This document shows, piece by piece, positions 254-52,649 of a stretch of 53,839 nt of DNA. Position numbers and translations under genes: made by a program. The DNA comes from Kiritimatiellia bacterium (GTDB lineage Bacteria; Verrucomicrobiota; Kiritimatiellia; CAIQIC01; Lenti-01): contig JAFSUH010000175.1 of the NCBI GenBank assembly GCA_017445365.1, positions 1 to 53,839 on the forward strand, read 5' to 3'. The stretch's first letter is position 1. Each line of letters opens with the position of its first letter. The notes under the pieces are model-generated. The model was not told the DNA's origin. It was given only the letters and a program-made list of their open reading frames with translations, and ran no database searches.

Positions 254-522
254 GCTGTCCTCCGGGGAGGAGGAAGGAGGACTCGCGCCTGCGGCGCTCG
301 ATGGGTGGTTGCGTTCGTTCGCATGCGGGCAAGATAGCGGCGGCGGGAACCGCCGCCTAATTTTGCGCGCGTTGCGCGCGATGCGCGCGAAAAACCAGCA
401 AGGCCGGGAAATCAAAAAAAATCAAAAAATCGCGTTTCACCCGCACCAGCATTGGCCGAAGTGCCGCTTTTTGTCGTGACACAAAGCGTGGGAAATCAAT
501 TTTTCCGTTTGATTTTTCCCGC

Positions 523-761
523 TTGCCAAGGCTTGGCGGAAAAACGGCCCCGTTGCCAAGCCCTGGCAAGGCCCCGGAAGGTCCTTTGCCAATGTTCGGC
601 AATGTCAAGGGAAATTTGCCAAGGGTTGGCAGAATCCGACGCGGGAAACGTCCAAGCCCTGGCCAAACTTGGCCGCGTTTGCCAAGGGTTGGCAACGCCT
701 TTGCAAGTCGTTTGCCAATGTCCGGCAAAACCGGACTCCGTTTGCCAAAGATTGGCAAAGG
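523..761. repeat. array A1: about 8 units of palindrome TTGCCAA-N3-TTGGCAA at about 29-34 bp spacing
   Basis: Units start near 523, 553, 587, 616, 650 (degenerate), 679, 712 and 742. Examples: tttgccaatgttcggcaa, tttgccaagggttggcag, tttgccaaagattggcaaa. Confidence 0.85.
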
Positions 762-4575: not shown

Positions 4576-4634
4576 GCGGCATCCAGACCACCGAAGGCGC
4601 ACGGGTTTCTCCCGTGCGCTTTGTGTGTCGAGGA

Positions 4635-4700
4635 CACTTTGCTTTGCGGCGGCTCCGCGCAACTCCGTTGCACGTGCCGCCGCTTCCGCCTCCAAAGCGC
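4635..4700 (+). repeat. REP-2 hairpin element (TTGCTTTGCGG-hairpin-CTTCCGCCTCCAA)
   Basis: cactttgctttgcggcggctccgcgcaactccgttgcacgtgccgccgcttccgcctccaaagcgc. Related copies at 7863, 9437, 18717 and 21270, and inside the R3 repeats. Confidence 0.8.
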
Positions 4701-4701
4701 G

Positions 4702-4838
4702 TTTTGCCAATGCTTGGCAAAAACCGCGAAAATTTGCCAAGGCTTGGCAAAATCGGCATGGAGACGGAAGCGGCGCTGCACGAAGTGGGAGGGCCGCAAG
4801 CAACGGGTCGGACGACCCTTGCCAAAGCTTGGCAAAAT
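4702..4838. repeat. array A2: 3 units of TTTGCCAA-N3-TTGGCAAA
   Basis: Units at 4702, 4732 (30 bp apart) and 4818. Confidence 0.85.
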
Positions 4839-7847: not shown

Positions 7848-7862
7848 TCCGAAAAGCGCATT

Positions 7863-7923: not shown

Positions 7924-8019
7924 CTTCGGAACCAAACCGCAGTGCATGGCGGAATGGTGAGAACTTTTCCGCCATTGAATGCGGTTTGGTTCTTGATGTC
8001 CCCGGTCCGGCGGAGTAGG

Positions 8020-9231
8020 ATGCCGGGCATGGAAATCCAACGCATCTACGACAAGATTGTCGCCTCGCACCTTGCCAAATACCGGCAGATGGCCTTTCTC
8101 TCCGGTCCGCGGCAGGTGGGAAAAACGACCGTGGCGAAACACTTCGCACCGCATTACTTCGACTGGGACAACGTGAATGCGCGCACCCGGATTCTCAAGG
8201 GCCCCGATGCCGTTGCGGAGGCGGCGCATCTGGACACCCTCCGGGAAGGGAAGACCGTCGTGGCTTTCGACGAAATCCACAAATACCCCCGGTGGAAGGA
8301 TTTCCTGAAAGGATTTTTCGACACCTACGAGGCGGATGCGCAAGTCGTCGCGACGGGGTCGGCGCGGATGGACGTTTTCGGCAAGGGCGGCGACAGCCTC
8401 ATGGGGCGCTATTTCCCGTACCGCGTGCACCCGCTCTCCGTGGCGGAACTGCTGGGCGGCGGCTTCCCCGGCGACAAGAGCCTCCTGCGGGAACCCGCGC
8501 CGCTTGACGAAACGGAATGGCGCGCGCTTCTCGTGCACGGGGGGTTCCCGGAGCCGTTCGTGCGCCGGGAAGCGGCGTTCACCCGGCGGTGGCGGGCGTT
8601 GCGGTCGGCGCAGTTGCTCAAGCGGGACGTCCGGGACCTGTCGAACATCCAGGAACTGGCGCAACTGGAAGTGCTCGCGCGGATTCTCGCGAAGCGGTCT
8701 TCGGATCAGGTGGCGTTTTCGTCGCTTGCTTCCGAAGTGCGGGTCGGGGAAAACACCGTGCGCGGCTGGATCGAGGTCCTCAAGTCCCTCTACTTCGGCT
8801 TCACCGTGCAACCCTATTTCGCGAACATCGAAAACGCCTTGCGCAAAACGCCGAAGTGGTACCTCCGGGACTGGTCGGGCATCGCGGACGAAGGCAAGCG
8901 GGCGGAAACGTTCGTCGCCTGCCATCTCCTGAAGGCCGTGGAAGGGTGGACGGACTTGGGGCTTGGCGAATTCGCCCTGTTCTATTTGCGGGACAAGAAG
9001 AAGCGGGAGGTCGATTTCCTCGTCACGCGGGATTCCTCGCCGTGGTTCCTGGTCGAAGTGAAGAAAGGCGATGCGCCCCTTTCGCCGGCCTTGGCGCATT
9101 TCCAGGAAGCCACGGGGGCCGGACACGCCTTCCAGGTGGTTCTCGACGCGCCATACGTGCAGGCCGATCCCTTCCAACGGACGAAGCCGACAATCGTCCC
9201 GGCGCGGACGTTCCTTTCGCTCCTCCTGTAA
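8020..9231 (+). CDS. AAA ATPase, AAA_14 + DUF4143 type (paralog 2)
   Basis: Walker A GPRQVGKTT, Walker B VAFDEIH, ATGSARMD...GDSLMGR. C-terminal REVDFLV...FLVEVKKGD is a PD-(D/E)xK-like pattern. The start could be 8029. Confidence 0.85.
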   Translation: MPGMEIQRIYDKIVASHLAKYRQMAFLSGPRQVGKTTVAKHFAPHYFDWDNVNARTRILKGPDAVAEAAHLDTLREGKTVVAFDEIHKYPRWKDFLKGFFDTYEADAQVVATGSARMDVFGKGGDSLMGRYFPYRVHPLSVAELLGGGFPGDKSLLREPAPLDETEWRALLVHGGFPEPFVRREAAFTRRWRALRSAQLLKRDVRDLSNIQELAQLEVLARILAKRSSDQVAFSSLASEVRVGENTVRGWIEVLKSLYFGFTVQPYFANIENALRKTPKWYLRDWSGIADEGKRAETFVACHLLKAVEGWTDLGLGEFALFYLRDKKKREVDFLVTRDSSPWFLVEVKKGDAPLSPALAHFQEATGAGHAFQVVLDAPYVQADPFQRTKPTIVPARTFLSLLL

Positions 9232-9271: not shown

Positions 9272-9433
9272 TTTTGCCGATGCTTGCCAAAGGGACGTCC
9301 GGCCCGTTGCTTGCACTTCCTCCGTTTCGCGTGGAAGTGCATCCGGCTTCACGCGCAATTTGCCAAACATTGGCAAATTCGAAAGGTGGGGCGAGGCGTC
9401 CCCGCCGAGCCGTTTGCCAAACCTTTCCCAAAC
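9272..9433. repeat. array A3: one intact and two degenerate TTTGCCAA-N3-TTGGCAAA units
   Basis: Intact unit atttgccaaacattggcaaatt at 9358-9379. Degenerate units at 9272 and 9412. Confidence 0.7.
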
Positions 9434-9436
9434 GGC

Positions 9437-9500
9437 TTGAAGGCGGAAGCGGGGACTCGCGCAGCGGCGTCTGCCGCAAGGCAACGTGGCGAACGCCACG
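9437..9500 (-). repeat. REP-2 hairpin element (inverted orientation)
   Basis: gaaggcggaagcggggactcgcgcagcggcgtctgccgcaaggcaacgtggcgaacgccacgg. Confidence 0.7.
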
Positions 9501-9593
9501 GTTGACCGCGTTCCCCGCGGGCGCTAGAGTTCGCGTTCCCTTGCGGCCGGGTTCCCGCCCTGCCCCCCACCCCACCCCCCACGAAAGGTTTCC

Positions 9594-10265
9594 ATGAGTC
9601 CGTTCGACACCGCCTCCAAGGGCGCTCTCCTCTTCGATCTCGACAATCTCGTCGTTTCCGCCCGCCGTCTCTACTACGCCGCGCTCAAGGAAATCGTCTC
9701 CGCCCAGGGCAAGGAACTCTCCCCCGTCCTTTTCTCCCGTTTCTTTGTCACCGGCAACGGCGCCGACATCCCCGCGCTGTACGCCGCCCTCGGTCTCGCC
9801 CCCGATGCCGCCGACGGCATCGACGGGCAGATTTCCGAAACCGTCATCCCCCGCCTCGCCGCCTCCACCGCGAAGCCCGACCAGGCCCTCTCCGACTGGA
9901 TTGCCGCCGCCCAGGCCCGCGGCGCGACCGTCGTCGCCCTCACCCGCCTTTCCGCCGACGCCGCCGAGTCCCTGCTCGCGCGCATCGGCCTGAACCCCGA
10001 AGCCGTCCGCCCCTTCACCATGGACGAGCCCGGCGACCCGGCGGCCTGGGGCAAGGCCTGCGCGTCGTTCGCAAAGCTCCCGCGCCGTTGCGTGGCGGTG
10101 GTCACCTCCTCCGACGCGGCGAAAGCCGCGCTGGCGGCGCATCTGGGCGTGGTCGCGGTCCCCGACGAGTACACGGATTTCCAGGACTTCGGCGGCGCGG
10201 ACGCGGTGGTCGGGTCCCTCAAGGAACTCGACGCGAAAGAATACTTCGATGCCATCCGCCTCTAG
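9594..10265 (+). CDS. HAD-superfamily hydrolase-like protein
   Basis: N-terminal LLFDLDNL (DxD-type motif I), about 220 aa, phosphatase-like layout. Weak call. Confidence 0.5.
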   Translation: MSPFDTASKGALLFDLDNLVVSARRLYYAALKEIVSAQGKELSPVLFSRFFVTGNGADIPALYAALGLAPDAADGIDGQISETVIPRLAASTAKPDQALSDWIAAAQARGATVVALTRLSADAAESLLARIGLNPEAVRPFTMDEPGDPAAWGKACASFAKLPRRCVAVVTSSDAAKAALAAHLGVVAVPDEYTDFQDFGGADAVVGSLKELDAKEYFDAIRL

Positions 10266-11139: not shown

Positions 11140-11149
11140 GGGTCGCGGA

Positions 11150-11282
11150 CCCGTTGTTTTGCGGCGCTTCCACGGCGCAAGTCGCCGTGTAGCGCCCGCC
11201 TTCGCCTCCAAACGGGAAGCGTCCTTGGGGGTGCGGGGGAAAATCCCCGTCGGTTGTCGAATCCCGTTCGCTTTTGGCGGGA
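11150..11282 (+). repeat. R3 direct repeat, copy 1 (133 bp; REP-2 hairpin plus G5/C5 hairpin)
   Basis: About 95% identical to 11933-12066. Starts just after the mazG stop. Confidence 0.9.
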
Positions 11283-11376: not shown

Positions 11377-11634
11377 ATGAGCTCAACCACCCTCCAAATC
11401 CGGCTTGATGCCGACCTCCGGCACGAGGCCGATGAATTGTTTTCCGCAGCGGGTCTCGACCTGTCTTCGGCGGTACGCCTGTTCCTGCGGCAATCGGTCA
11501 TCCGCCGGCGTTTGCCTTTCGAGGTCATCGGGGCGGACCCGTTCCACTCCGAAGCCAACCAGCGCGCCCTCGCCGACTCCATCCGCTCCATCGAGCGCGG
11601 CGAAGCCCAAGCCCACGCCCTTGTCTCCCCCTGA
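11377..11634 (+). CDS. RelB/DinJ-family antitoxin (TA module 1)
   Basis: TTLQIRLDADLRHEADELFSAAGLDLSSAVRLFLRQSV is the RHH DinJ signature. Immediately upstream of a YoeB-like toxin. Confidence 0.8.
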   Translation: MSSTTLQIRLDADLRHEADELFSAAGLDLSSAVRLFLRQSVIRRRLPFEVIGADPFHSEANQRALADSIRSIERGEAQAHALVSP

Positions 11635-11638
11635 CGTC

Positions 11639-11905
11639 ATGGATGTCCTTTTTTCGCCCCGCGCCTGGGAGGAATACACCCAATGGCAGCAGGAGGACAA
11701 AAAGACGCTCAAACGCATAAACCTTCTCGTCAAGGACATCGAGCGAAACGGCCACGCCGGCTTGGGCAAACCCGAACCCCTGCGCGGGTGGGACGGCTAC
11801 TGGAGCCGCCGCATCGACGACGCCAACCGTCTCGTCTACAAACTGGAAGCCACAGGCCCGACCCGCCGTCTCCTCATCGCCCAGTGCAAAACTCACTACG
11901 AATGA
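11639..11905 (+). CDS. yoeB: Txe/YoeB-family mRNA interferase toxin (TA module 1)
   Basis: FSPRAWEEYTQWQQEDKKTLKRINLLVKDIERNGHAGLGKPEPLRG...WSRRIDDANRLVY...CKTHY matches YoeB hallmarks. Confidence 0.85.
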   Translation: MDVLFSPRAWEEYTQWQQEDKKTLKRINLLVKDIERNGHAGLGKPEPLRGWDGYWSRRIDDANRLVYKLEATGPTRRLLIAQCKTHYE

Positions 11906-11932
11906 CCGCCCCGACGAAGGGGGGCCGTTAGG

Positions 11933-12066
11933 CCCGTTGTTTTGCGGCGCTTCCACGGCGCAAGGCGCCGTGTAGCGCCCGCCTTCGCCTCCAAACGGGA
12001 CGCGTCCTTGGGGGTGCGGGGGAAAATCCCTCGCCGGTTGTCGAATCCCGCTCGCTTTTGGCGGGA
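11933..12066 (+). repeat. R3 direct repeat, copy 2
   Basis: See copy 1. Preceded by aaggggggccgttagg, which resembles the mazG 3-prime end aagggtcgttagg. Confidence 0.9.
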
Positions 12067-13674: not shown

Positions 13675-13863
13675 GGAAGCCTTTGGTTCGCGGGGTTCGG
13701 GTTGCAAGGACGTCTAGCAGAAGGAGCGGCGCGGGGCAAAAGGAAACGCGCGGCGCGCCTTTGGCGCGGTTGAAAAGTTGAAAGGTTGAAAAGTTGAAGA
13801 ATGGCCTTCAACAGATTTCCTCAAGCTTTCACCCTTTCAACTCTTCACCCTTCAACCCTTCAG
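13675..13863 (+). repeat. R4 direct repeat, copy 1 (189 bp) including GTTGAARR octamer tandem repeats and their inverted partners
   Basis: ggaagcctttggtt.gcggggttcgggttgcaaggacgtctagcagaaggagcggcgcggggcaaaaggaaacgcgcggcgcgcc...cttcaac... Near-identical to 16434-16608. Partial relatives at about 12565-12630 and 14540-14600. Confidence 0.9.
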
Positions 13864-13999: not shown

Positions 14000-14269
14000 A
14001 TGGCACAGGTCAGTTTCAGGATGGATGATGATTTGAAGATGGTTGCGGATGATACGTTCCGCTCGATGGGCATGACGATGTCGACGGCCATCAACATTTT
14101 CGTGGCGCAGACGGTGCGGCTCGGGCAATTCCCATTTGCCATCAAGGCCGATCCGTTCTATTCGGAAGCCAACATGGCCGAGTTGCGCCGCCGTGCCGCG
14201 GACGTGGAGGCGGGGCGGCATCTCGTCGAACACGAGTTGGCGGAGGCGGGGGAAGCCACCCATGCGTAA
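14000..14269 (+). CDS. RelB/DinJ-family antitoxin (TA module 2)
   Basis: MAQVSFRMDDDLKMVADDTFRSMGMTMSTAINIFVAQTV plus the same DPF(Y/H)SEAN C-terminal segment as module 1. Confidence 0.8.
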   Translation: MAQVSFRMDDDLKMVADDTFRSMGMTMSTAINIFVAQTVRLGQFPFAIKADPFYSEANMAELRRRAADVEAGRHLVEHELAEAGEATHA

Positions 14270-14519
14270 GGTCTGGCACGAGGAGGCCTGGGAGGAATAT
14301 CTCGCCTGGCAGGGCACGGACAGGAAGACGCTCAAGCGCATCAACCAACTCCTCCAGAGCATCGACCGCAACGGCTATGCTTGTCTCGGCAAGCCGGAAC
14401 CGTTGAAGCACGACTTGGCCGGCTGGTGGAGCGTCCGCATCAACGACGCCGACCGCTTGGTATTCCGCATCGCGGGCGACCGCCTCGAAATCCTTTCCTG
14501 CAAAGGCCACTACTCTTGA
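14262..14519 (+). CDS. yoeB: Txe/YoeB-family toxin (TA module 2)
   Basis: In-frame ATG of ORF 14136..14519 overlapping the antitoxin end by 8 nt. WHEEAWEEYLAWQGTDRKTLKRINQLLQSIDRNGYACLGKPEPLKHDLAGWWSVRIN..DRLVF...CKGHY. Confidence 0.85.
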   Translation: MRKVWHEEAWEEYLAWQGTDRKTLKRINQLLQSIDRNGYACLGKPEPLKHDLAGWWSVRINDADRLVFRIAGDRLEILSCKGHYS

Positions 14520-16433: not shown

Positions 16434-16608
16434 GGAAGCCTTTGGTTAGCGGGGTTCGGGTTGCAAGGACGTCTAGCAGAAGGAGCGGCGCGGGGCAAAA
16501 GGAAACGCGCGGCGCGCCTTCGGCGCGAGGGAAAAGTTGAAGAATGACCCTTCAACAGATTCCCGCAACCTTTCACCCTTTCAACTCTTCACCTTTTCAA
16601 CCTTTCAG
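16434..16608 (+). repeat. R4 direct repeat, copy 2 (175 bp)
   Basis: Same orientation as copy 1. Has a shorter GTTGAA left arm. Confidence 0.9.
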
Positions 16609-16914: not shown

Positions 16915-17904
16915 TCACCCCTCCTCCCGGGCAGGACGGGGTTCCTCGTGCATGGTGCATTCTGCATTGAGCTTCCGGATTTCCGCGGCGGCTTTCGCGA
17001 AGTAGAGGTCGAGGTAGTCGGGGGCGAAGGCGGAGGCGTGCGGGTAGAGGAAGCAGTTGGGGGCGTCGCGGAGCGGCGAGTCCGCGGGAAGCGGCTCCTC
17101 CCGGAACACGTCGAGCAGCGCCCCGGCGAGGGCGTTGCGCCGCAGGGCGCCGGCGAGCGCTTCCTCGTCGAGCAGGTTGCCGCGCCCGAAGTTGTAGAGG
17201 AAGGCGCTTGGCTTCAGGAGCGCCAGCCGCCGCGCGTCGAGGAGCCCGTCCGTTTCCGGCCCGGAGGGAAGGAAGCTCGCGACGTGGTCCGCGAGGGGGA
17301 GGACTTCATCGAGCTCCCCCACCCCCGCCACGCGGTCCGCCGCCGCGGGGTCGGGGACGGGCGAGCGCCGGACGCCGATTACGGTCGCGCCGAAGGGCTT
17401 GACGAGCGCGCCGAAGGCCCGGCCGATGCGGCCGAAGCCGAGGATGGCGACGGTCTGGCCGCACAGGCGGCGCGAGCGGAGCATGATGTCGCGGCGCGGC
17501 CAGGCTTTCCCGCCGCCGTCGCGGCGCATGGCGGAGGCGAAGGGGAGGAGCCCGTGCGTGCAGGCGAGCAGGGCCCCCAGCGCGGTTTCGGCCATGATGG
17601 CGCCGTGGAAGGTGCCGTAGTGCATCGCGACCCGCGGCGGCGGGACCACGCGGAAGTAGTCGCGCCCCGCGGCGGGGGTGCAGAGGTGGCGGAGTTTCGG
17701 CGCGCGGTCGAACCACTCCTGGCGGAAGTCCCAGACGAAGACGGCGCGGGCTTCGGGGAGGAGGGCGAGAAACTCCGCCTCGCTCGTGCAGCGGCGCACG
17801 TCCGCGCCGTCGCCGCAGAGGTCGGCGAAGCGGCGTACCTGCGCCTCCGTGGGCCGGAAGACGTCCATCGCGTGGGAAAGGTAGACAAGCCGCAAATCGC
17901 TCAT
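16915..17904 (-). CDS. D-isomer-specific 2-hydroxyacid dehydrogenase family protein
   Basis: In-frame ATG (MSDLRLVY). NAD motif ILGFGRIGRAFG. Arg/Glu/His triad context FNFGRGNLLDE, DVFREEP, YPHASA. Confidence 0.85.
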   Translation of the reverse strand: MSDLRLVYLSHAMDVFRPTEAQVRRFADLCGDGADVRRCTSEAEFLALLPEARAVFVWDFRQEWFDRAPKLRHLCTPAAGRDYFRVVPPPRVAMHYGTFHGAIMAETALGALLACTHGLLPFASAMRRDGGGKAWPRRDIMLRSRRLCGQTVAILGFGRIGRAFGALVKPFGATVIGVRRSPVPDPAAADRVAGVGELDEVLPLADHVASFLPSGPETDGLLDARRLALLKPSAFLYNFGRGNLLDEEALAGALRRNALAGALLDVFREEPLPADSPLRDAPNCFLYPHASAFAPDYLDLYFAKAAAEIRKLNAECTMHEEPRPAREEG

Positions 17905-17998: not shown

Positions 17999-18124
17999 AT
18001 TTGCCAATGTTTGGCAAATTTTACGTGATTTTGCCAAGGTTTGGCAAAATGTTTCCCGTGCGCGGCAAATGGATTTGCCAAGGTTTGGCAAATTTTGCCC
18101 GTTTTTGCCAATGTTTGGCAAAAC
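17999..18124. repeat. array A4: 4 units TTTGCCAA-N3-TTGGCAAA with spacing 30/44/30 bp
   Basis: Units start at 17999, 18029, 18073 and 18103. Lies in the divergent promoter region between 17904 (-) and 18150 (+). Confidence 0.9.
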
Positions 18125-18149: not shown

Positions 18150-18617
18150 ATGGAACAACCGCCTCCCGCCTCCGGCCAGCATTCCCGCCCCCGGGCCATC
18201 TATTTCCCGTGGTTGAGTTGGTTCGTTTTCGGCGCGCTGAGTTTGCTGGGGCTGTGGGTTGTGCGGTACTTCCTTCTCCATGACGTGCCGTATTGGGACT
18301 TCAGGAAAAGCGCATTCACCTTCACTCTGCCCTGCCTGGGGGTGTTTTTGTCCCGCCCCGTCCTGCTGTTTTCCGGGGACAAGGTGCATGTCATCCGCTG
18401 TTTCGGGCTGTACTGGCGGCGTATCCGCGCTGCTGGCATCCTCAAGCTCGTGCTTTTCTTGAACAAAGGAGACGGCCCCGTCATCTCCCGGATTGGCAGC
18501 ATCTATCTCGTCCTGAAGAACGCGGAAAGCTTCGAGCTGTGGTTCCTTCCGGGCCAGAAACGGAAAATCGTGGAAGAATTCGTCTCCCGCTGGAACATCC
18601 CTCTCGAAATCCCCTGA
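18150..18617 (+). CDS. hypothetical membrane protein
   Basis: In-frame ATG (MEQPPPASG...) downstream of the repeat array. Two N-terminal TM helices, then a soluble domain. Confidence 0.5.
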   Translation: MEQPPPASGQHSRPRAIYFPWLSWFVFGALSLLGLWVVRYFLLHDVPYWDFRKSAFTFTLPCLGVFLSRPVLLFSGDKVHVIRCFGLYWRRIRAAGILKLVLFLNKGDGPVISRIGSIYLVLKNAESFELWFLPGQKRKIVEEFVSRWNIPLEIP

Positions 18618-18621
18618 AGCA

Positions 18622-18717
18622 TTTTGCCAAACATTGGCAATTTGGAACCCTTTTTGCCAAACATTGGCAAAATCAAAAACGCGCGCAGTGGGTGTTTTTG
18701 CCAAACATTGGCAATTT
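18622..18717. repeat. array A5: 3 units TTTTGCCAAACATTGGCAA with spacing 30/44 bp
   Basis: Units start at 18622, 18652 and 18696. Confidence 0.9.
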
Positions 18718-18783
18718 GCGCTTGGAGGCGGAAGCGGCGGCACACGCAGTGGAGCCGCCGCAAAGCAACGTGCCTCCGGCACC
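18717..18783 (-). repeat. REP-2 hairpin element (inverted orientation)
   Basis: gcgcttggaggcggaagcggcggcacacgcagtggagccgccgcaaagcaacgtgcctccggcacc. Confidence 0.8.
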
Positions 18784-18790
18784 GCCGCCG

Positions 18791-20098
18791 CTATCCGTTG
18801 ATCGGATATGACACGGTTTCGCCTTCGGTCCAGTCGCCGTCCGCCGCGATGGCCGCCAGCGCCGCTTCCAGCGCCGCCGCCTTCACCTTCCCCGTCACCA
18901 TCACCACCGGCACGTACTTCGCCCCCTCCTCCCCCTCCTTCTGGATGACCGACGCGATCCCGATGCCGTGCGCCCCCAGCGTTTGCGCCATCCGCGCCAG
19001 CGCCCCGGGGGTGTCCCGCAGCGAAAAGCGCAAGTAATGGCGGCTTTCCTCCTCGCCGCGCGGCCGCCGCGCGATTTCCCCCGCCTCCGGCAGCCGCTCG
19101 TACCGCCACGCCCCGCCACGCGCAATCGCTTCCGCCGCGTCCGCGATGTCCGCGACCACCGCGCTCGCCGTGGCCGCCCGGCCCGCCCCCCGGCCGTAGA
19201 ACAGGGTCGTCCCCACGCTGTCTCCCTCCACCAGCACCGCGTTGAACACGCCCGAAACCTGCGAGAGCAGGTGTTCGCGACCGACCAGCGTCGGAGCGAC
19301 GGACACCTCCAGCCCCGCCGGCCCGCAGGCCATGTGGGCCAGAAGCTTGATGCGGTAGCCGAGGTCGCCCGCGTAGCGGATGTCGCGCGCGTCGATGCCG
19401 CGGATGCCGCGGACGGCCACGTCCTTCGCCTCCACCAGCTTCCCGCACGCGAGCGAGGCGAGAATGGCCGCCTTGTGGGCGGTGTCGTGGCCGTCGATGT
19501 CGAGGCTCGGCTCGGCCTCCGCGTATCCGGCTTCCTGCGCGGCGTGCAGAACCGGGTCGAAGGCGAGGCCTTCCGACTCCATGCGCGTGAGGATGTAATT
19601 GCAGGTGCCGTTCAAGATCCCCTCGATGCGGAGGATGCGGTTGGCGACGAGGCCCTCGGTGAGCGCCTTCAAAATCGGTATGCCGCCGCCGACGGACGCT
19701 TCGAAGTGGAGCCTGGCGCCGTTCGCGCGGGCGGTCTCGAAGAGCTCCTTGCCGTGTTCGGCGATGAGCTTCTTGTTGGCGGTGACGACGGCCTTGCCGC
19801 GCCGCAGGGCGTCGAGCACGAGCGTGCGGGCGATGCCGCACCCGCCGATGGTTTCCACCACCACGTCCACGTCATCGCGGGCGATGGCCGCGGCCGAGTC
19901 GCGCGAGAGGATGCCGTCGGGCACTTCCACGCCGCGGTCGGTGTCGAGGTCGAGGTCGCAAACGGCGCGCAGGGCGACTCGCACGCCGAGGCGCGCGGCC
20001 AGAAGGTCGCCTTGCGCCAGCAGGATTTCGACCACGCCCGCGCCGACGGTCCCGAATCCCAGGACCGCAACGCCGATTTCGTTCCGTTTTTCCGTCAT
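18791..20098 (-). CDS. hom: homoserine dehydrogenase
   Basis: In-frame ATG (MTEKRNEIGVAVLGFGTVGAGV) of the long ORF 18791..22285. ANKKLIA, ASVGGGIPI, LNGTCNYILT, and a C-terminal ACT-like domain. Confidence 0.92.
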   Translation of the reverse strand: MTEKRNEIGVAVLGFGTVGAGVVEILLAQGDLLAARLGVRVALRAVCDLDLDTDRGVEVPDGILSRDSAAAIARDDVDVVVETIGGCGIARTLVLDALRRGKAVVTANKKLIAEHGKELFETARANGARLHFEASVGGGIPILKALTEGLVANRILRIEGILNGTCNYILTRMESEGLAFDPVLHAAQEAGYAEAEPSLDIDGHDTAHKAAILASLACGKLVEAKDVAVRGIRGIDARDIRYAGDLGYRIKLLAHMACGPAGLEVSVAPTLVGREHLLSQVSGVFNAVLVEGDSVGTTLFYGRGAGRAATASAVVADIADAAEAIARGGAWRYERLPEAGEIARRPRGEEESRHYLRFSLRDTPGALARMAQTLGAHGIGIASVIQKEGEEGAKYVPVVMVTGKVKAAALEAALAAIAADGDWTEGETVSYPING

Positions 20099-21256: not shown

Positions 21257-21269
21257 GCTGCCCGAAGGG

Positions 21270-21336
21270 CACGTTGCTTTGCGGCGCTTCCACGGCGCTT
21301 CGCACCATGTAGCGCCGCCCCCGCCTCCAATCCGCC
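21270..21336 (+). repeat. REP-2 hairpin element
   Basis: cacgttgctttgcggcgcttccacggcgcttcgcaccatgtagcgccgcccccgcctccaatccgcc. A G5/C5 hairpin (gggggttcgggggcattcccccgtccgttgcc) follows at about 21430. Confidence 0.75.
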
Positions 21337-21474: not shown

Positions 21475-22329
21475 TCACGCATCCGCCGTCGGTTCCCATG
21501 CGCCGGACGGAAGGAGTTGCAAGTCTTTGACGAGACGCCGTGCCTTGTGCCGGAAGGCCGGTCTTTCGGCCTCGTGGAAGCGTTTCATGCCTAGTTCCAG
21601 AAATGCGGCCGATTGGTCGATGCCGAAAAACTTCCGCCCCAACAACCGCGCCGCGATGCCGGTCGTGCAGGAACCCGCGAAGGGGTCGAGAACCCAATCC
21701 CCCTCCTTCGTGGAAGCGAGGAGGATGCGGACGAGGAGCGAAAGCGGTTTTTGCGTGGGATGCTTGCCGAACGTCTTTTCCCAGCGGCCGATGGCGGCCA
21801 GCGGCCACACGTCGCGCATCTGTTTCCCGCCCGCCAGTTTGCGCATGAGGGAGTAGTTGAAAAAATGCGGCGTTTTCGCTTCGCGCCGCGCCCAGATCAC
21901 GAACTCGGCCGAATGCGTGAAATAGCGGCAGGAAAGGTTGGGCGGCGGATTCGTCTTCTGCCAGACGACGACGTTCAGGATTTTGTAGCCGAGTCCGGCA
22001 AGCGCGTTGGCGGTTTGGAACGTGTTGTGGTGCGTGCCGCTGATCCACACCGTTCCGGACGGCTTGAGGATGCGGCGCAACGCTTCGAGCCACCGGCGCG
22101 CGAAGGCGGCGTCCGCCTCCCCGCCGCGCGATTTGTCCCAGTCGCCCTTGTCCACGCAGACCTGCCGCCCGCTTTGCACGGAGATTCCGCCGTTGGAAAG
22201 GAAATACGGCGGATCGGCGAACGCGCAATCGAACTGGAACCCCTTCCGGGCGATTTCCTCCATCCACTCGACGCAATCGCCGCACCCGAGCGCCCAGCGC
22301 GCGTCGGGCGATTTGAAAAAGGGTTGCAT
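21475..22329 (-). CDS. beta-class N6-adenine (or N4-cytosine) DNA methyltransferase, second methylase of the RM cassette
   Basis: DPPY (FADPPYFL) precedes the AdoMet motif DPFAGSCTTG. The ATG overlaps the endonuclease stop (TGATG). Confidence 0.85.
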   Translation of the reverse strand: MQPFFKSPDARWALGCGDCVEWMEEIARKGFQFDCAFADPPYFLSNGGISVQSGRQVCVDKGDWDKSRGGEADAAFARRWLEALRRILKPSGTVWISGTHHNTFQTANALAGLGYKILNVVVWQKTNPPPNLSCRYFTHSAEFVIWARREAKTPHFFNYSLMRKLAGGKQMRDVWPLAAIGRWEKTFGKHPTQKPLSLLVRILLASTKEGDWVLDPFAGSCTTGIAARLLGRKFFGIDQSAAFLELGMKRFHEAERPAFRHKARRLVKDLQLLPSGAWEPTADA

Positions 22330-23252
22330 CACGGCGAGAGAATCTCCCCGAGGATGCCGGTCAGCAGGTTCTTCCCGCGGACGGCGGCGAGATTGAGGAG
22401 GTAGTCGGCTTTCTGGCAATACTCCCGCAGGGGCGCTTGCGTTCCCTTCCATCCGTAGCCGTCGGTGATCCAGAGGAATTCCACGCGCCGTTGCCGGGAA
22501 TACCGCTTGAACATTTCGCAGTATTCGGTTGCCGTTGATTTCAGTTTCGACCCGCCGCCGCCGTAGAAATTCGTTTCCAGGAGGAACAGGCGGTCGTCCC
22601 GGAAAATCGCGAAATCGACGCGGCGCTCGGATTTGTCCATTTGCAGGTCGAAGTCCCAATGCGCCTTGATCTTGGCCTTGGTCGCCTGCGCCATGTAGTC
22701 GGCGTGCAACGCCTCCGCCGTTTCCACGACGAAATTCTCGACGAGCGATTCCATCAGGTCTCCCGAGCGGTTCTTGCGCGCGTTGCTGTCGAGCCCGACC
22801 TCGATTCCGAAGTAGTAGTCCGGAATGCTCTTGACCTTCCGGTCGGCGAGGATGTCCAGAAGCCCGCTCTGCCGGAGGAAGCGGACGCACGAGGCGATGT
22901 CGGCCGCGGAAGGCGCACGCCCCTCGAAATCGAAGCGTTTGACGAGGAGTTTTTTCGCATCCACCATGACGTCGAAAGAGTGCTCGCGGGAGGCAAGAAG
23001 CAACGGCATCACGCGGAGGACTTTCGGATAGTCGGCGATGAGCGATGACAAATCGCGCTCGATGTCCTCGGATCCCACGAGCGTGTCGAGCAGGGCCAAT
23101 TCCCGGACGTGCGGTGCCACGTTTGCCTTTACGCGGTTCCAATCCACGAACCAATCGCTCCGGTGGATGGTCGGAATGAGCGTGTCGATGAGGAAGCGGA
23201 AGGATTCGTCCTCGTTCCGGCATCCGAGGAGGGCCGTTTCGATCGGGTTCAT
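22329..23252 (-). CDS. DpnII/MboI-family type II restriction endonuclease (GATC-type by family)
   Basis: 307 aa. Layout and segments (FGIEVGLDSNARKNRSG, DFAIF...LLETNFYGGGGSK) recalled from the DpnII family. Sandwiched between two methylases with overlapping start/stop codons. Confidence 0.75.
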   Translation of the reverse strand: MNPIETALLGCRNEDESFRFLIDTLIPTIHRSDWFVDWNRVKANVAPHVRELALLDTLVGSEDIERDLSSLIADYPKVLRVMPLLLASREHSFDVMVDAKKLLVKRFDFEGRAPSAADIASCVRFLRQSGLLDILADRKVKSIPDYYFGIEVGLDSNARKNRSGDLMESLVENFVVETAEALHADYMAQATKAKIKAHWDFDLQMDKSERRVDFAIFRDDRLFLLETNFYGGGGSKLKSTATEYCEMFKRYSRQRRVEFLWITDGYGWKGTQAPLREYCQKADYLLNLAAVRGKNLLTGILGEILSP

Positions 23253-24169
23253 GAGGGGACTCCGTTCGTGAAATTGGAGACAAGGATTTCGCCGAGTTTT
23301 CCGCGCCTGTCCGCCTTCGCGTTGACCATTCGCGAAGCCTGGACGCCTCGGATGTCGAATCCGGCGTAGAGTCCGTCGAAAAAGGTGTCGCCGGGGTCCG
23401 TCCCTTTCGGGTCGGAATTGCTGAGGAGCCAGCGGACGCCTTTGCGGTCCAAGGTGCGGCAAACGTCGGCGAGGCGGTGTTGCTCCCTGTCGTCGAAGCC
23501 GCCTTGCGTGTAATCGCGGAACCCCGACGTGGCCGAAATCGGCCGGTAGGGCGGATCGAAATAAACAAACCAATCCGGCCCGGCCCCGGCAAGGGCATCC
23601 GCGAAGTCGCCGTCGAGGATTTCGACTCCCGCAAGCGCCGCCGAGTCGGCCAGCAACGTTTCCCGGTCGCAAATCCGCGGATTCGCGTAGCGTCCGAAAG
23701 GGACGTTGAACGCACCTTTCGCGTTCACCCGGTAAAGCCCGTTGAAGCAGGTGCGGTTGAGAAAGAGCATTCGGGCCGTCCGCCGGACGGGATTGTCCGC
23801 GCAATCGGCAATGGCGGCGTTGTAGGCGTCGCGCACGGCAAGGTAGAACGCGCGGCGGTCCTCCTCTCCGGTTCGGGCGCGGTAGTCCGTTTGAAGTTCA
23901 TCCAAGGCTTCGACCAGTTCGGCGGCATGCGATTGGACAACCCGCCAGGCATTCGCGAGATCGGGATTCGAATCGTTGACAACGACCCGTTCCGGGCGGA
24001 GACCCTTGGCGAGAAGATGGAACAGCAACGCCCCGCCGCCGACGAACGGCTCCGCATAGACACGGACCGTCCTCTTGAAATCCTCCGGCAACCGGGCATC
24101 CAGTTCTGGGAGCAGTTGCGTTTTCCCGCCAGCCCATTTGATGAATGGTTTTATCGTCTCTCGTTTCAT
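23249..24169 (-). CDS. dam: Dam-family (alpha-class) DNA adenine methyltransferase
   Basis: IKWAGGKTQLLPEL, EPFVGGGALLF (FxGxG) before FDPPYRP (DPPY). The stop overlaps the endonuclease ATG (ATGA). Confidence 0.9.
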   Translation of the reverse strand: MKRETIKPFIKWAGGKTQLLPELDARLPEDFKRTVRVYAEPFVGGGALLFHLLAKGLRPERVVVNDSNPDLANAWRVVQSHAAELVEALDELQTDYRARTGEEDRRAFYLAVRDAYNAAIADCADNPVRRTARMLFLNRTCFNGLYRVNAKGAFNVPFGRYANPRICDRETLLADSAALAGVEILDGDFADALAGAGPDWFVYFDPPYRPISATSGFRDYTQGGFDDREQHRLADVCRTLDRKGVRWLLSNSDPKGTDPGDTFFDGLYAGFDIRGVQASRMVNAKADRRGKLGEILVSNFTNGVPS

Positions 24170-24260
24170 GCTCGCGATGCGTCCTGCATCGCGGCGGACA
24201 TGGAGAGACGAAAAAGCGCGTTCTCGAATCCATGCCCTCCTCGGAAGCCCTACCACAGGC

Positions 24261-24320
24261 TGATCAGATTACACGGAGAGAACGCGCCCGGAGGGGCGCG
24301 TCTGCTGATGAATCTGATCA
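24261..24320. promoter_or_regulatory. nested inverted repeat with two GATC sites upstream of the RM operon
   Basis: tgatcagat (24261-24269) and atctgatca (24312-24320) flank the GC hairpin gcgccc-ggag-gggcgc. Lies 90-150 nt upstream of the dam start. Confidence 0.3.
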
Positions 24321-24494
24321 AAGCCGCAGGCTTCAATCGGTACGACGGAAGGAAACGTGTGGTAGTATTTCCGAGGAGGCGTCGTTTAGCAGATCGCTAA
24401 AAGGTTGGATTGTTCAAGGCGGGATGCTGGGTGGGAACGGTTCTCCGTGGGGGTGGATTTCCTGCGCGGCGGATGCCGCGGAACGATGGAATCA

Positions 24495-24780
24495 CTTTGC
24501 CAAAAGCCCCCGCCCCCGGCAAGAATCCTTCCGTTGCCGGTTCCGGTTTTGCCAAACATTGGCAAATCCCAAAATGGTAAGGTGAGCCGTTCTCCAGTCC
24601 CGCTGGTTCCGCCCATCCCTTCCCAATCCTTGGGGGGTGCGGGGGTTTCCCCCGTCCGTTGTCATGCGCCGCGCATGCGCGGCGCCAAATCGAACCCCGC
24701 CAAAGGTGCCAACCCCCATTTTGCCAATGTTTGGAAAAAACGCCCTGAATTTGCCAAACATTGGCAACCCCTCCCCACCA
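24495..24780. repeat. array A6: TTTGCCAA-N3-TTGGCAAA units (3 good, 1 degenerate) plus a G5/C5 hairpin
   Basis: Units at 24547, 24729 and 24759 (30 bp apart). Degenerate unit at 24495. ggggggtgcgggggtttcccccgtccgttgtc at about 24633. Confidence 0.8.
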
Positions 24781-25810
24781 TTTCCCAGCCACTCCAAAAA
24801 CTGTCTTTTCAGTATCCGCGAAGCGGTTTCAATGTCCCACCCCTTTGCGGACCTCGCGCACTTTGCGCGAGCTTTTTCCCTTCCCCTCTCCCAAGCCCGA
24901 CAATCCTGCATTTCCTGTCGGAACCTTCTCTTTTCAATATCCGCTTTTATGGCCTTCATAGTCTCCGTTTCCCGCCCTTGTGTATTCTGCCTTGTGGATT
25001 GTCCATTGCCTTCCTGCTCCTGTCCGAAAGGCTTCTCCATTGAAAGCCCACGGACGCTTCAATGGTTTTCAATGTCTCCGTGACTCTCATTCTCCGTTTC
25101 CTCCGTGTTTGCAAACTGCATGATTGCGAAACCAATCAATCCCCGCCCCCTTTCCTCCCCAAATCCTTCGCATTCATTGTCCCCTCCTCTCTCCCCCCCC
25201 TCATTCCACCAATTTTCCTCTCCAACACACAAGGCACTATGTCACATAAATCTCTATATCGCTGTTTCTTCGCGTGGGCATTGTTTGCCATCCCTGCGAC
25301 ATCGTGGTCGAATCGCCCCAACGGAGGGAATGCCCCGTCTGCACGAAGGATGCGTTTGGAATCGATCTTCTCCAACTCGTCGGGGACGCAAGTTGCGCCC
25401 CGTAGAAATCACTTGACACGATTCCCGCGCCCTGATGTCCGCGCTTTCCTCCGGGACGACCTCGCATCCGGCCTGCCATCGGAAGTGTACGAGTCCCCCT
25501 CTCCGACTGTGTCTCCGTCCGCAACATCCGCTCTTTCCGATTTTGAGAACACCCCACAACGAGCCTCTGGCCTCGCTAGCGTTCCCCTCCCCTGCGCGAG
25601 TCTTCTTGCTCTTTTTCTCCGTTTTACCCTCCAATCCGCCCGTTTTCCGCCGGAAGGTGAAAAGCCGTTTTGGCAAGTATTCATGCGGTCGAAATGCAGA
25701 TTTTGCATCCAAAAGAACTCCGCCAGAATCGAAAAATGCAAAATGAGTCGTGTTCTTGCCCGTGAATTCCGCTTTTTTGAAACGGCTTTTCTCCCTCTTT
25801 TTCGCCTCTT

Positions 25811-25864
25811 GAAACAAAATATATTATTTTAAGATTTATGCGACAAAGTATTTTATAAAATCGT
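25811..25864. other. AT-rich island (10 G/C in 54 nt); candidate DNA-unwinding element or divergent promoter
   Basis: gaaacaaaatatattattttaagatttatgcgacaaagtattttataaaatcgt in an otherwise GC-rich genome. Lies at the point where the plus strand switches from C-rich to G-rich. Confidence 0.35.
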
Positions 25865-26193
25865 TACCCCTTCCCCACCCTTTCGAACGAATCGGTCAAG
25901 GTCGGTGACGGTCCGGGGCCGGGACGGAGAGTCGGGATGGGCGAAGCGGGATGGCGGGAATCTTCGGAGGATTCCAATCCGTCTTGCACGGAAGGAATCC
26001 TGGTCTCTGTTCCGTGAGAGTGATTCCCTTCCCTCCAAGGAACGAGGCTTGTGGGTATCGGTTGGACACAGGGAAGCAGGGCGAGCAAAAGAAAGAATGA
26101 CAGAAGGAGCGGGAAAACGCTTGAAGGAACGGGAGGGCTTCCCTACCCTCCCGTTGCGCGGATTGCGGAAGTTGCGCGAAAACAAGGATTTCC

Positions 26194-52448: not shown

Positions 52449-52574
52449 TTTTGCCAATGTTCGGCAAATCCGGCCCGTTTTTGCCGAACATTGGCAAATC
52501 CATCCGCCGCGCGCGTTCCCGGTTTTGCCAATGTTTGGCAAATTTCACGCGATTTTGCCAAGGATTGGCAAAAT
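52449..52574. repeat. array A7: 4 units TTTGCCAA-N3-TTGGCAAA with spacing 30/44/30 bp
   Basis: Units start at 52449, 52479, 52523 and 52553. Lies in the divergent promoter region between 52350 (-) and 52650 (+). Confidence 0.9.
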
Positions 52575-52649
52575 GCCTTCCGGGCGCGGCGGACGGTTGA
52601 TTTCCGCCCGGGGAATCGGCACACTCCTCCGCCGAACAAGGAGTTTCCC

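What the first reader, a model, noticed from the sequence alone, without database searches (positions are those of the whole stretch)
17999..18124. Phased arrays of the palindrome TTTGCCAA-N3-TTGGCAAA in seven intergenic regions
- A 19-22 bp palindrome (arms TTTGCCAA / TTGGCAAA, 3-nt spacer) occurs about 28 times in this window.
- All copies are intergenic, in clusters at 523-761, 4702-4838, 9272-9433, 17999-18124, 18622-18717, 24495-24780 and 52449-52574.
- Spacing is not random. Units come in pairs 30 bp apart (start to start), and pairs are 44 bp apart. Starts are 17999/18029/18073/18103, 52449/52479/52523/52553 and 18622/18652/18696.
- The two 4-unit arrays both fill divergent promoter regions and share semi-conserved 8-bp inter-unit spacers (ttacgtga / tcacgcga and ttgcccgt / cggcccgt).

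This looks like either a composite REP/MITE-like element or a dimer-of-dimers binding platform for an abundant DNA-binding protein. I do not recognise the motif from any described system.
Basis: seen in the sequence. Interest (0 to 1): 0.65.

Follow-up and report, generated by a model that had tools for sequence, protein, structure and literature searches.

The report
Clustered intergenic palindromic repeats in Kiritimatiellia
The phased palindromes are real and are best read as a previously undescribed family of REP/BIME-like intergenic repeats in an uncultured Kiritimatiellia bacterium: a familiar kind of genome feature, but with an unusual AT-rich, protein-site-like design and no identifiable mobilising enzyme.

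Summary
TTTGCCAA-N3-TTGGCAAA occurs 27 times (0.3 expected by chance) in seven clusters. The window is a whole metagenome contig from a deep-branching Kiritimatiellia bacterium.

- **Anatomy:** the basic module is a doublet, two units 30 bp apart. Doublets with a GC-rich tail are reiterated at 74- or 63-bp periods.
- **Spread:** the same units and the same composite arrays occur in about 1 Mb of contigs from a related organism. They are mostly at non-orthologous sites and in either orientation. They are enriched in convergent spacers, often 20-55 nt after stop codons, and show no target duplications.
- **Dispersal:** linker sequences are shared between unlinked arrays, so whole modules have been dispersed.
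- **Relatives:** other Kiritimatiellia genomes carry arrays of the same design with symmetrically changed arms (TTTTCCAA, TTTTACGT).

I read this as a REP/BIME- or REPIN-like mosaic repeat family. It has no GTAG/CGTC tag, and no RAYT gene lies next to it in the DNA available.

Three features imply a sequence-specific dimeric protein partner, not identified: near-invariant arms, a central base pair that is always G:C, and spacings near whole helical turns. A primary role as a protein-binding platform is therefore not excluded.

Novelty: new variant of a known kind. Interest is moderate.

The parts
522..759 (.). Array 1. Seven units start at 522, 552, 585, 615, 678, 711 and 741 (spacings 30, 33, 30, 63, 33, 30). 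Several are degenerate, with 1-3 mismatches.
   Evidence: It lies in the divergent spacer between called genes 2-253(-) and 1063-1245(+).
4703..4836 (.). Array 2. A doublet at 4703/4733 plus a single unit at 4818. The 85-bp gap holds a copy of the GC-rich hairpin repeat.
   Evidence: It lies in the spacer between co-directional called genes 4420-4575(+) and 4936-5514(+).
9273..9431 (.). Array 3. Units at 9273 (2 mismatches), 9359 (exact) and 9413 (3 mismatches): a decaying array.
   Evidence: It lies in the spacer between 8029-9231(+) and 9594-10265(+). The orthologous spacer of the relative (L052) also carries units.
18000..18122 (.). Array 4, the reported feature. Two doublets (18000/18030 and 18074/18104), each followed by an approximately 18-nt GC-rich tail. 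This is a tandem duplication of a 74-bp module.
   Evidence: family D2. It lies between divergent genes 16915-17904(-) (2-hydroxyacid dehydrogenase) and 18111 or 18150-18617(+). Each doublet is predicted to fold into one long hairpin.
18623..18715 (.). Array 5. A doublet at 18623/18653 plus a unit at 18697. It starts 6 nt after the stop codon of the small gene.
   Evidence: It lies in the convergent spacer between 18617(+) and the homoserine dehydrogenase gene 18791-20098(-).
24548..24768 (.). Array 6. A single unit at 24548 and a doublet at 24720/24750. An isolated half-site sits at about 24496-24503.
   Evidence: It lies in an approximately 2-kb stretch upstream of mnmG with no convincing gene. 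The ORF called at 24492-25040(-) looks spurious.
52450..52572 (.). Array 7. Two doublets (52450/52480 and 52524/52554) with the same 30-44-30 layout as array 4.
   Evidence: It is 83% identical over 135 nt to an array at a non-orthologous site of the relative (L078). It lies between divergent genes 50992-52350(-) (TPR) and 52650-52985(+) (STAS).
4631..4698 (+). GC-rich hairpin repeat (second family). Its CCTCCAA end lies 7 nt before unit 4703.
   Evidence: (D12).
4755..4812 (-). GC-rich hairpin repeat lying between units 4733 and 4818.
9434..9501 (-). GC-rich hairpin repeat abutting array 3.
   Evidence: (D6).
18719..18786 (-). GC-rich hairpin repeat abutting array 5, directly after the stop codon of the homoserine dehydrogenase gene.
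   Evidence: (D6).

Best explanation
The palindromes are the units of a lineage-specific, high-copy family of extragenic palindromic repeats of the REP/BIME type, in an uncultured Kiritimatiellia bacterium.

**Shown**
- The replicated module is a doublet: two 19-bp dyads 30 bp apart, 49 bp in all.
- The doublet plus a GC-rich tail or linker is reiterated in tandem. The period is 74 bp in the window, and 73/74 or 63 bp in the relative.
- Whole modules, with their linkers, occur at unlinked intergenic sites. They lie in either orientation and have no target duplication.
- They sit preferentially in 3' space and are gained and lost between related genomes, while the unit consensus stays the same.

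**Inferred**
- The doublet can extrude as one long hairpin or cruciform in single-stranded DNA or RNA.
- A sequence-specific, two-fold symmetric protein recognises TTTGCCAA-nSn-TTGGCAAA. That recognition keeps the arms identical across hundreds of copies and two organisms. The protein is either the enzyme that disperses the modules or a host DNA-binding protein that makes them useful.
- For the host, the arrays probably act as known REP/BIME elements do: as 3' hairpins that buffer mRNA decay or read-through, and as protein-binding or supercoiling sites. In divergent spacers they may incidentally supply promoter-like hexamers.

The dispersal mechanism itself is unknown.
For: **Real and far above chance.** 27 hits against 0.32 expected. 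By my GC3-based gene map no unit centre lies in a gene; one cluster lies in a called ORF that I judge spurious.

**Doublets dominate.** 16 of 21 good units in the unbiased window have a partner at +/-30 bp. In the relative's loci the cluster types are 90 x (30), 22 x (30,43,30), 9 x (30,33,30) and 7 x (30,44,30), though those loci were found through a doublet pattern.

**Doublets fold.** Each is predicted to form one long hairpin, with z-scores of -5 to -6.

**A second organism carries the same units and composites.** It shares only about 76% nucleotide identity with the window in the one orthologous gene megablast aligned. An array at a non-orthologous site is 83% identical to window array 7.

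**Whole arrays share descent.**
- In 22 arrays the linker core GCGGGCCG is conserved, and the third unit mostly has GGT at its centre.
- The 58 variable positions are 61% identical between arrays.
- 15 array pairs reach at least 75% identity there, against 1.5 in column shuffles, although their flanks are unrelated.

**Placement is like REPs.**
- Units occupy 39% of convergent spacers against 18% of co-directional and divergent spacers.
- They often lie 20-55 nt after stop codons; the median in co-directional spacers is 52 nt.
- This is the distribution described for REPs (PMC3733652).

**Orientation is random** with respect to genes and GC skew.

**Turnover.** Only 1 of 4 orthologous spacers keeps units in both organisms.

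**Mosaic structure.** A second hairpin repeat with compensatory pair changes abuts units in 4 of its 8 copies.
Against: - No RAYT or other HUH transposase gene lies next to the units in 54 kb plus about 1 Mb. The only RAYT-like genes found (L038, L145) carry a different repeat at their flanks; in L145 this is a GTAG-tagged palindrome on both sides.
- Units lack the GTAG or CGTC tag that most described REPs carry (PMC3733652).
- They are AT-rich, whereas classical REPs are G+C-rich.
- Degenerate copies show no excess of compensatory changes: 4 compensatory against 3 non-compensatory double changes, and 86 one-sided changes. Nothing therefore shows selection for the hairpin as such.
- No empty-site polymorphism was available. 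The strains in the metagenomes are about 100% identical, so mobility is inferred and not observed.
- The relative's loci were ascertained through an exact doublet pattern, which inflates doublet counts and arm conservation there.
Confidence: 0.6

Rival explanations
1. The arrays are primarily binding platforms. An abundant dimeric DNA-binding protein (a nucleoid-associated protein or global regulator) binds each dyad. Dimers on units spaced about 3 and about 4 helical turns apart cooperate. The arrays exist because that binding is useful for chromosome organisation, insulation or regulation. They spread by local duplication and selection, not by transposition.
For: - The arms are near-invariant (0.92-0.99 per position) while the centre and spacers vary. 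This estimate is partly circular, because units were defined by their arms.
- The central base pair is G or C in essentially all units and never A or T. G and C are about equally frequent, as expected for a two-fold symmetric contact on double-stranded DNA.
- The same holds in the variant families.
- Spacings are 22, 30-33, 43-44, 54, 63-66 and 84-86 bp, all near whole numbers of helical turns.
- In other Kiritimatiellia genomes both half-sites change together: TTTTCCAA/TTGGAAAA, TTTTCCA-N5-TGGAAAA and TTTTACGT/ACGTAAAA.
- Units in degenerate copies show no excess of compensatory changes.
- Two 4-unit arrays fill divergent spacers.
Against: - Density is about 0.5 units per kb, which would mean on the order of a thousand or more sites per genome. 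That is far more than any known operator set.
- Units are enriched in convergent spacers, which have no promoters.
- Linkers and tails, which a dyad-binding protein would not constrain, are shared between unlinked arrays and between organisms.
- Positions are mostly not conserved between relatives.
- Only four or five spacing classes exist, and they are fixed by descent of the module, so the helical phasing cannot be tested statistically.
Confidence: 0.25
2. The units work mainly as RNA. Transcribed at the 3' ends of genes, the hairpins terminate transcription or block 3' exonucleases. They are therefore a lineage-specific kind of terminator or 3'-UTR stabiliser.
For: - Arrays often begin 5-60 nt after stop codons and are most frequent in convergent spacers.
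- Stable hairpins are predicted on both strands.
- In the relative, gene duplicates carry their 'head plus doublet' element with them.
Against: - The stem is followed by an A-run, not a U-run. The T-run lies 5' of the stem.
- The terminator scan finds no more sites than shuffles do.
- Arrays also sit in divergent spacers and immediately upstream of start codons.
- Composite arrays are oriented at random relative to transcription.
- There is no excess of compensatory changes.
- Strict conservation of stem sequence is not needed for a hairpin.
Confidence: 0.08
3. The arrays are ordinary MITEs: deletion derivatives of a DDE-type insertion sequence whose terminal inverted repeats are the TTTGCCAA arms.
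For: - The doublet is formally a 49-bp element with arms of about 21 bp in inverted repeat.
- Whole modules are dispersed.
- An IS4-like transposase gene occurs in the relative.
Against: - There are no target-site duplications of 3-8 bp at any tested offset.
- No longer element with distinct ends surrounds the arrays.
- The IS4-like gene's neighbourhood owes its similarity to a duplicated gene with its own 5' region, not to the units.
- There is no match in plasmid or phage records, and viral contigs give only chance-level single hits.
Confidence: 0.05

Closest known systems
REP sequences organised in BIMEs (bacterial interspersed mosaic elements; Enterobacteria, Pseudomonas, Stenotrophomonas)
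   Same: - Short (20-40 bp) palindromes in high copy, in extragenic DNA.
- Regularly spaced in composite arrays with linkers of a few fixed lengths and sequences.
- Mosaic with other motifs.
- Species-specific sequence.
- Preference for convergent and co-directional spacers downstream of genes (PMC2817692, PMC3733652).
   Different: - AT-rich arms flanked by T- and A-runs, instead of G+C-rich stems.
- No GTAG or CGTC tag.
- Each unit is an almost perfect dyad, so 'alternating orientation' is not defined.
- No RAYT gene beside them in the DNA sampled.
REPINs (REP doublets forming hairpins) mobilised by RAYTs
   Same: - Doublets, not single units, are the over-represented entity.
- The doublet with its spacer folds into one long hairpin (PMC3116915).
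   Different: - The two units of a doublet are not consistently inverted relative to each other. By centre base: 65 G/C, 9 C/G and 92 same-sense doublets.
- The central triplets of the two units are fully complementary in only 24 of 178 doublets.
- No cognate RAYT was found.
CGTC-tagged REPs, which lack a dedicated transposase
   Same: An abundant REP-like family with no associated RAYT (PMC3733652).
   Different: The CGTC tag is absent here, and the base composition and architecture differ.
Neisserial intergenic mosaic elements (dRS3 / RS arrays); comparison from my own knowledge, not tested
   Same: Intergenic mosaics in which a short repeat with terminal dyad symmetry alternates with variable or semi-conserved segments.
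   Different: The sequences are unrelated. dRS3 repeats serve as integration targets for a phage or IS110-type recombinase, and no such link is seen here.

Membership tests
REP (broad definition) | Palindromic unit of 20-40 bp that can form a stem-loop | tested here: met
   The unit is a 19-22 bp dyad with an 8-9 bp stem and a 3-nt centre. Stable folds are predicted.
REP (broad definition) | High copy number, extragenic | tested here: met
   27 units in 54 kb. By my GC3-based gene map 27 of 27 are non-coding; the assembly's own caller puts array 6 inside a doubtful hypothetical ORF. There are 424 units in about 1 Mb of the relative's loci, which were ascertained through the repeat itself. A whole-genome count is not possible.
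REP (broad definition) | Preferentially downstream of genes, in convergent and co-directional spacers | tested here: met
   Units occupy 39% of convergent spacers against 18% of the other types. In co-directional spacers the median distance is 52 nt from the stop codon and 82 nt to the next start. Gene calls here are crude, being GC3-based.
GTAG / CGTC tagged REP super-families | Unpaired GTAG or CGTC motif at one end of the hairpin | tested here: not met
   The position-specific consensus of 183 doublets and their flanks shows neither tag. A canonical GTAG REP does exist in a related genome (L145), and it is a different repeat.
RAYT-associated REP / REPIN | A RAYT gene flanked by the cognate repeats | tested here: not met
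   Motif and phmmer searches covered all six frames of the window and all loci. They find RAYT-like ORFs only in L038 and L145. In L038 the nearest TTTGCCAA unit is 2.8-3.6 kb from the RAYT-like ORFs, and L145 has none. The genome is incomplete, so absence is not proven.
REPIN | Doublets over-represented and forming one hairpin | tested here: met
   16 of 21 good units in the window are paired at 30 bp. The minimum-free-energy fold of a doublet is a single long hairpin.
REPIN | The two units of a doublet are in inverted orientation | tested here: inconclusive
   Units are themselves dyads. Judged by the centre base there are 65 G/C, 9 C/G and 92 same-sense doublets.
BIME | Regularly spaced units with a small set of conserved linkers, forming modular tandem arrays | tested here: met
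   Spacings are 30, then 33 or 43/44. The long linker has a conserved GCGGGCCG core. The window has a 74-bp module (family D2).
MITE | Terminal inverted repeats bounding a longer element, with target-site duplication | tested here: not met
   No direct repeat of 3-8 bp flanks 155 clusters beyond the permutation expectation. There is no conserved sequence outside the arrays.
Intrinsic terminator | G+C-rich stem-loop followed by a U-run | tested here: not met
   The stem is followed by A-runs. The consensus scan finds 3 terminator-like sites against 2.8 expected around arrays 4 and 5, and 0 around array 7.
Operator array of a dimeric DNA-binding protein | A protein that binds the dyad, with an effect on the neighbouring genes | not testable with these tools
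   There are only indirect sequence arguments: dyad symmetry, a G:C centre and near-helical spacing.

The most novel reading that the evidence does not exclude
Kiritimatiellia genomes share an undescribed system. A conserved dimeric DNA-binding protein recognises a dyad built as T-run, lineage-specific core, G:C centre, core, A-run. The core specificity co-evolves with the sites (GCCAA, TCCAA, TCCA, TACGT). The sites are laid out in helically phased arrays throughout intergenic DNA and serve as a chromosome-organising or insulating scaffold. This would be a nucleoid-level function, not a selfish repeat, and it would be independent of RAYT-type enzymes.
Probability: 0.2. Interest if true: 0.7.

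Novelty: new variant of a known kind. Interest (0 to 1): 0.4.

Why it matters
REP/BIME-type repeats are known mainly from Proteobacteria, and almost all described families carry a GTAG or CGTC tag tied to RAYT enzymes. This family differs in four ways:
- It comes from an uncultured branch of the PVC group.
- It has no such tag and no RAYT beside it.
- Its arms are AT-rich, in a genome of 60-67% G+C.
- Its sequence constraints look like those of a site for a dimeric protein on double-stranded DNA.

Sister lineages carry arrays of the same design with co-varied half-sites. That gives a natural experiment for finding the partner protein by co-variation. It could also settle whether such repeats are maintained by a mobilising enzyme or by a host function.

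In practical terms, the repeats explain why these genomes assemble into fragments. They also mark intergenic DNA that automated gene callers wrongly annotate as ORFs.

Tried and rejected
- **Sigma-54 or sigma-70 promoter.** By eye, the hexamer spacing does not fit sigma-54. The scan finds sigma-70-like hexamers (TTGCCA-18-TAAAAT) only in array 4, not in array 7 and not in the family consensus.
- **Intrinsic terminators.** Rejected: A-runs follow the stems and the scan stays at chance level.
- **MITE with target duplication.** Rejected.
- **Known RNA family.** No Rfam hit at gathering thresholds.
- **Phage or plasmid origin.** No blastn match. Viral contigs give only 32 isolated single units, which by my rough estimate is about the chance number, and no arrays.
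- **RAYT association.** Two RAYT-like genes were found in fetched loci, but both carry a different repeat at their flanks.
- **An IS4-like element as carrier.** The multi-copy 1-kb segment next to some 'head plus doublet' elements is a duplicated gene with its own 5' region, not an insertion sequence.
- **Genes flanked on both sides by arrays, as candidate partner genes.** The intervals gave only non-coding-looking frames and no candidate.
- **oriC link.** mnmG is nearby, but there is no DnaA-box cluster and arrays occur throughout.
- **Empty-site comparison between strains.** Impossible: overlapping contigs from different samples are 99.2-100% identical.
- **Literature search for the motif or for Kiritimatiellia palindromes.** Nothing relevant.
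- **Reference genomes.** An exact doublet search of 185,579 species representatives returned nothing.

Full report
**1. The observation**

The dyad TTTGCCAA-N3-TTGGCAAA, allowing up to 3 mismatches, occurs 27 times in the 53,839-bp window. Dinucleotide-preserving shuffles give a mean of 0.32 and at most 2. The units fall in seven clusters: 522-759, 4703-4836, 9273-9431, 18000-18122, 18623-18715, 24548-24768 and 52450-52572. In this unbiased sample, 16 of 21 well-preserved units have a partner at +/-30 bp.

**2. What the window is**

The window is a complete metagenome contig, ENA ERZ27256812 k141_504988, in reverse complement. It carries ordinary chromosomal genes:
- mnmG, homoserine dehydrogenase and an aminotransferase;
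- a DpnII-type restriction-modification cluster;
- a polysaccharide-synthesis cluster.

Its MnmG is only about 60% identical to the nearest of 185,579 species representatives, all labelled Kiritimatiellia or Verrucomicrobiota MAGs. The organism is therefore an uncatalogued, deep-branching Kiritimatiellia.

**3. Are the units intergenic?**

By the assembly's own gene calls, six clusters lie between genes. Arrays 1, 4 and 7 are in divergent spacers, arrays 2 and 3 in co-directional spacers, and array 5 in a convergent spacer. Array 6 falls inside a called 182-aa ORF (24492-25040, minus strand). That ORF has no Pfam hit and a low-complexity translation, and it is probably spurious. The small gene next to array 4 is called from an ATG inside the fourth unit (18111), but an in-frame ATG at 18150 exists. 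There are no units between 24768 and 52450. That stretch holds the polysaccharide-synthesis cluster and includes the lowest-GC part of the window.

**4. Anatomy**

A related organism supplies many more copies (paragraph 5). From its contigs, a position-specific consensus of 183 non-redundant doublets is:

...TTTGCCAA-kGy-TTGGCAAAAa..ccCcgTTTTTGCCAA-rCm-TTGGCAAAa...

- The arms are 92-99% conserved. This figure is partly circular, because units are defined by their arms.
- The 11-nt spacer is variable.
- The centre base is G or C in all units and never A or T.
- Each doublet is predicted to fold into one long hairpin, with the outer arms and the inner arms pairing (z-scores -5 to -6).

In the window, the repeated module is the doublet plus about 18 nt of GC-rich tail, 67 nt in all. 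Window 52524-52590 is 90% identical to 18000-18066. The 4-unit arrays are tandem repeats of a 74-bp period (family D2).

**5. A second organism with the same repeats**

- An exact doublet pattern found nothing in the reference genomes.
- It found 115 stretches in JGI metagenome contigs, mostly Ga0310786 and Ga0265298.
- These come from a relative, not the same organism. The loci average 67% G+C, higher than most of the window. Megablast aligned only one shared gene, at 76% identity.
- The loci hold 424 units. Spacings are 30 (192 times), 33 (22), 43 (29) and 44 (6).
- Cluster types are (30), (30,43,30), (30,44,30), (30,33,30) and (30,33,30,33,30).
- The loci were ascertained through a doublet, so doublet frequency there is inflated.

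**6. Whole arrays are dispersed copies**

- Properly oriented, the 22 arrays of type 30-43-30 share a linker with a conserved GCGGGCCG core. Their third unit mostly has GGT at its centre.
- Their 58 variable positions are 61% identical on average.
- 15 array pairs reach at least 75% identity, against 1.5 (at most 7) in column shuffles, while their flanks are unrelated.
- Window array 7 is 83% identical over 135 nt to an array beside an unrelated gene in the relative.

The composite, linkers included, has therefore been copied to unlinked sites. It was not assembled independently at each site.

**7. Where arrays sit and how they are oriented**

- Composite-array orientation is random with respect to neighbouring genes and to GC skew.
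- No target-site duplication is detectable.
- Units occupy 39% of convergent spacers against 18% of co-directional or divergent spacers.
- In co-directional spacers they lie closer to the upstream stop codon (median 52 nt, many at 20-55) than to the next start.

**8. Turnover between the two organisms**

Four orthologous segments could be compared. Only the spacer upstream of the 9594-10265 gene has units in both organisms, and different units are decayed in each. The other three differ in presence. Overlapping contigs from different samples are 99.2-100% identical, so no filled/empty polymorphism was available.

**9. Companion modules differ between the organisms**

In the relative, about 60 doublets are preceded by a conserved 'head': CCCCCC-GGC-GGTTTTTGCCCG-N5-CCGA. 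The head lies on the C-rich strand in 57 of 59 cases. Contig-wide GC skew there is about +/-0.2. About half of the heads follow a same-strand stop codon by 4-46 nt. The rest face the start of an opposite-strand gene.

The window has no head. Instead it has a 60-75-nt GC-rich hairpin repeat in eight copies, with compensatory changes in 4 of its 13 predicted pairs. Four copies abut units. That repeat is absent from the relative's loci. The T-rich dyads are thus the shared, conserved part of a mosaic whose other pieces are lineage-specific.

**10. Wider family**

Other Kiritimatiellia or Verrucomicrobiota MAGs fetched through mnmG carry arrays of the same design with both arms changed symmetrically:
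- TTTTCCAA-N3-TTGGAAAA (L132, L134);
- TTTTCCA-N5-TGGAAAA (L129, L131);
- TTTTACGT-N3-ACGTAAAA (L145).

Their spacings are 22 and 30-32 bp, and the centre base is again G or C.

L145 also has a canonical RAYT gene bracketed by GTAG-tagged GC-rich palindromes (GGTAGGGCGACTTGG.CAAGTCGCC), about 4 kb from its TTTTACGT array. Classical REP/RAYT systems therefore exist in this group, and the T-rich arrays are something else.

**11. Search for a mobilising gene**

Motif and phmmer searches of all six frames of the window and all loci found RAYT-like ORFs only in L038 and L145. In L038 the nearest TTTGCCAA unit is 2.8-3.6 kb from the RAYT-like ORFs, and L145 has no such unit. Intervals bracketed by two arrays gave no candidate gene. 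The multi-copy segment next to an IS4-like transposase is a duplicated gene that carries its own 3' 'head plus doublet', not an insertion sequence.

**12. Interpretation**

Several properties match REP sequences organised in BIMEs, and REPINs, as defined in PMC2817692, PMC3733652 and PMC3116915:
- copy density;
- an extragenic location with a 3' preference;
- the doublet as the basic module;
- a modular mosaic with fixed linkers;
- dispersal of whole modules;
- turnover between relatives;
- lineage-specific sequence.

Two defining features of the best-studied families fail: there is no GTAG or CGTC tag, and no flanking RAYT. PMC3733652 notes that CGTC REPs also lack a dedicated transposase, so this is not without precedent.

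The sequence constraints point to recognition of double-stranded DNA by a two-fold symmetric protein, and not to selection for a hairpin alone:
- near-invariant arms;
- a centre that is G:C in either orientation;
- symmetric co-variation of the half-sites between lineages;
- no excess of compensatory changes in decaying copies (86 one-sided, 4 compensatory, 3 non-compensatory).

That protein could be the disperser or a host factor. The data cannot tell which, so a primary role as a binding platform remains the main rival. I reject the terminator and promoter readings as primary roles.

**13. Verdict**

This is a new variant of a known kind of element, of moderate interest. The interest would rise if the partner turns out to be a conserved host protein that organises Kiritimatiellia chromosomes.

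Noticed in passing
window 4631-4698(+), 4755-4812(-), 7859-7926(-), 9434-9501(-), 11143-11214(+), 11926-11997(+), 18719-18786(-), 21262-21333(+): A second intergenic repeat family of 60-75 nt, GC-rich: ...GTTGCTTTGCGGCG..TCCAC-loop-GTGT.GCGCCGCTTCCGCCTCCAA. It has a conserved hairpin and compensatory changes in 4 of 13 predicted pairs. Three copies contain GTAG next to the 3' stem. Four copies abut the TTTGCCAA units. It is absent from the relative's loci.
   Followed up: partly
loci L001-L115 (relative), e.g. L078:2890-2935: A 'head' motif, CCCCCC-GGC-GGTTTTTGCCCG-N5-CCGA, directly precedes about 60 doublets. It lies on the C-rich strand in 57 of 59 cases, and all heads within any one contig point the same way. 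This polarity would fit insertion or selection tied to the direction of replication.
   Followed up: partly
loci L001-L115: Contig-wide GC skew in the relative is unusually strong, about +/-0.2 and up to 0.4. Non-coding DNA is very C-rich on one strand.
   Followed up: no
window 24170-26193: About 2 kb upstream of mnmG has no convincing gene. The two called hypothetical ORFs have no Pfam hit, and the one I assessed (24492-25040) has an implausible low-complexity translation. There is an AT-rich patch at about 25790-25860. There is no Rfam hit and no DnaA-box cluster.
   Followed up: partly
L145:9790-10470: A canonical REP/RAYT unit in a Verrucomicrobiota MAG (UBA2281). The RAYT-like ORF is bracketed by GGTAGGGCGACTTGG.CAAGTCGCC palindromes carrying the GTAG tag. 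A RAYT-like gene in L038 (8970-9887, minus strand) has a different direct repeat at its flanks, which encodes 'ARLESRTSQ'.
   Followed up: partly
window 43762-43838 and 45601-45677; 45240-45373 and 47012-47145; 13675-13782 and 16434-16541: Further dispersed repeats. A 77-nt stretch is 100% identical upstream of two ATPase genes. There are also 134-nt and 108-nt pairs at 90-95% identity. The window holds three paralogous AAA_14/DUF4143 ATPase genes and a fourth AAA ATPase gene of the ATPase_2/AAA_16 type.
   Followed up: no
window 11377-11905 and 14000-14519: Two RelB/YoeB-type toxin-antitoxin pairs. Segments within or next to them recur about 2.6 kb apart (families D7 and D16), and family D8 flanks the first pair.
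   Followed up: no
window 21475-24169: A restriction-modification cluster: an N6/N4 methyltransferase, a DpnII-family endonuclease and a Dam-like (MethyltransfD12) methyltransferase.
   Followed up: no
loci of the relative, e.g. L101:1455-1500 and L054 near 2040: The motif CAAGATTAAGGAAAA recurs shortly upstream of start codons. It may be a conserved 5'-UTR or ribosome-binding element of this lineage.
   Followed up: no
window 53667-53838: Tandem repeats with a 33-nt period inside the DUF748-family gene at the end of the contig. These are coding repeats.
   Followed up: no
L129:6070-6240: A four-unit TTTTCCA-N5-TGGAAAA array is bracketed by an inverted repeat (CGCGGCTCATG ... CATGAGCCGCG). This may be two divergent paralogous gene starts.
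   Followed up: no
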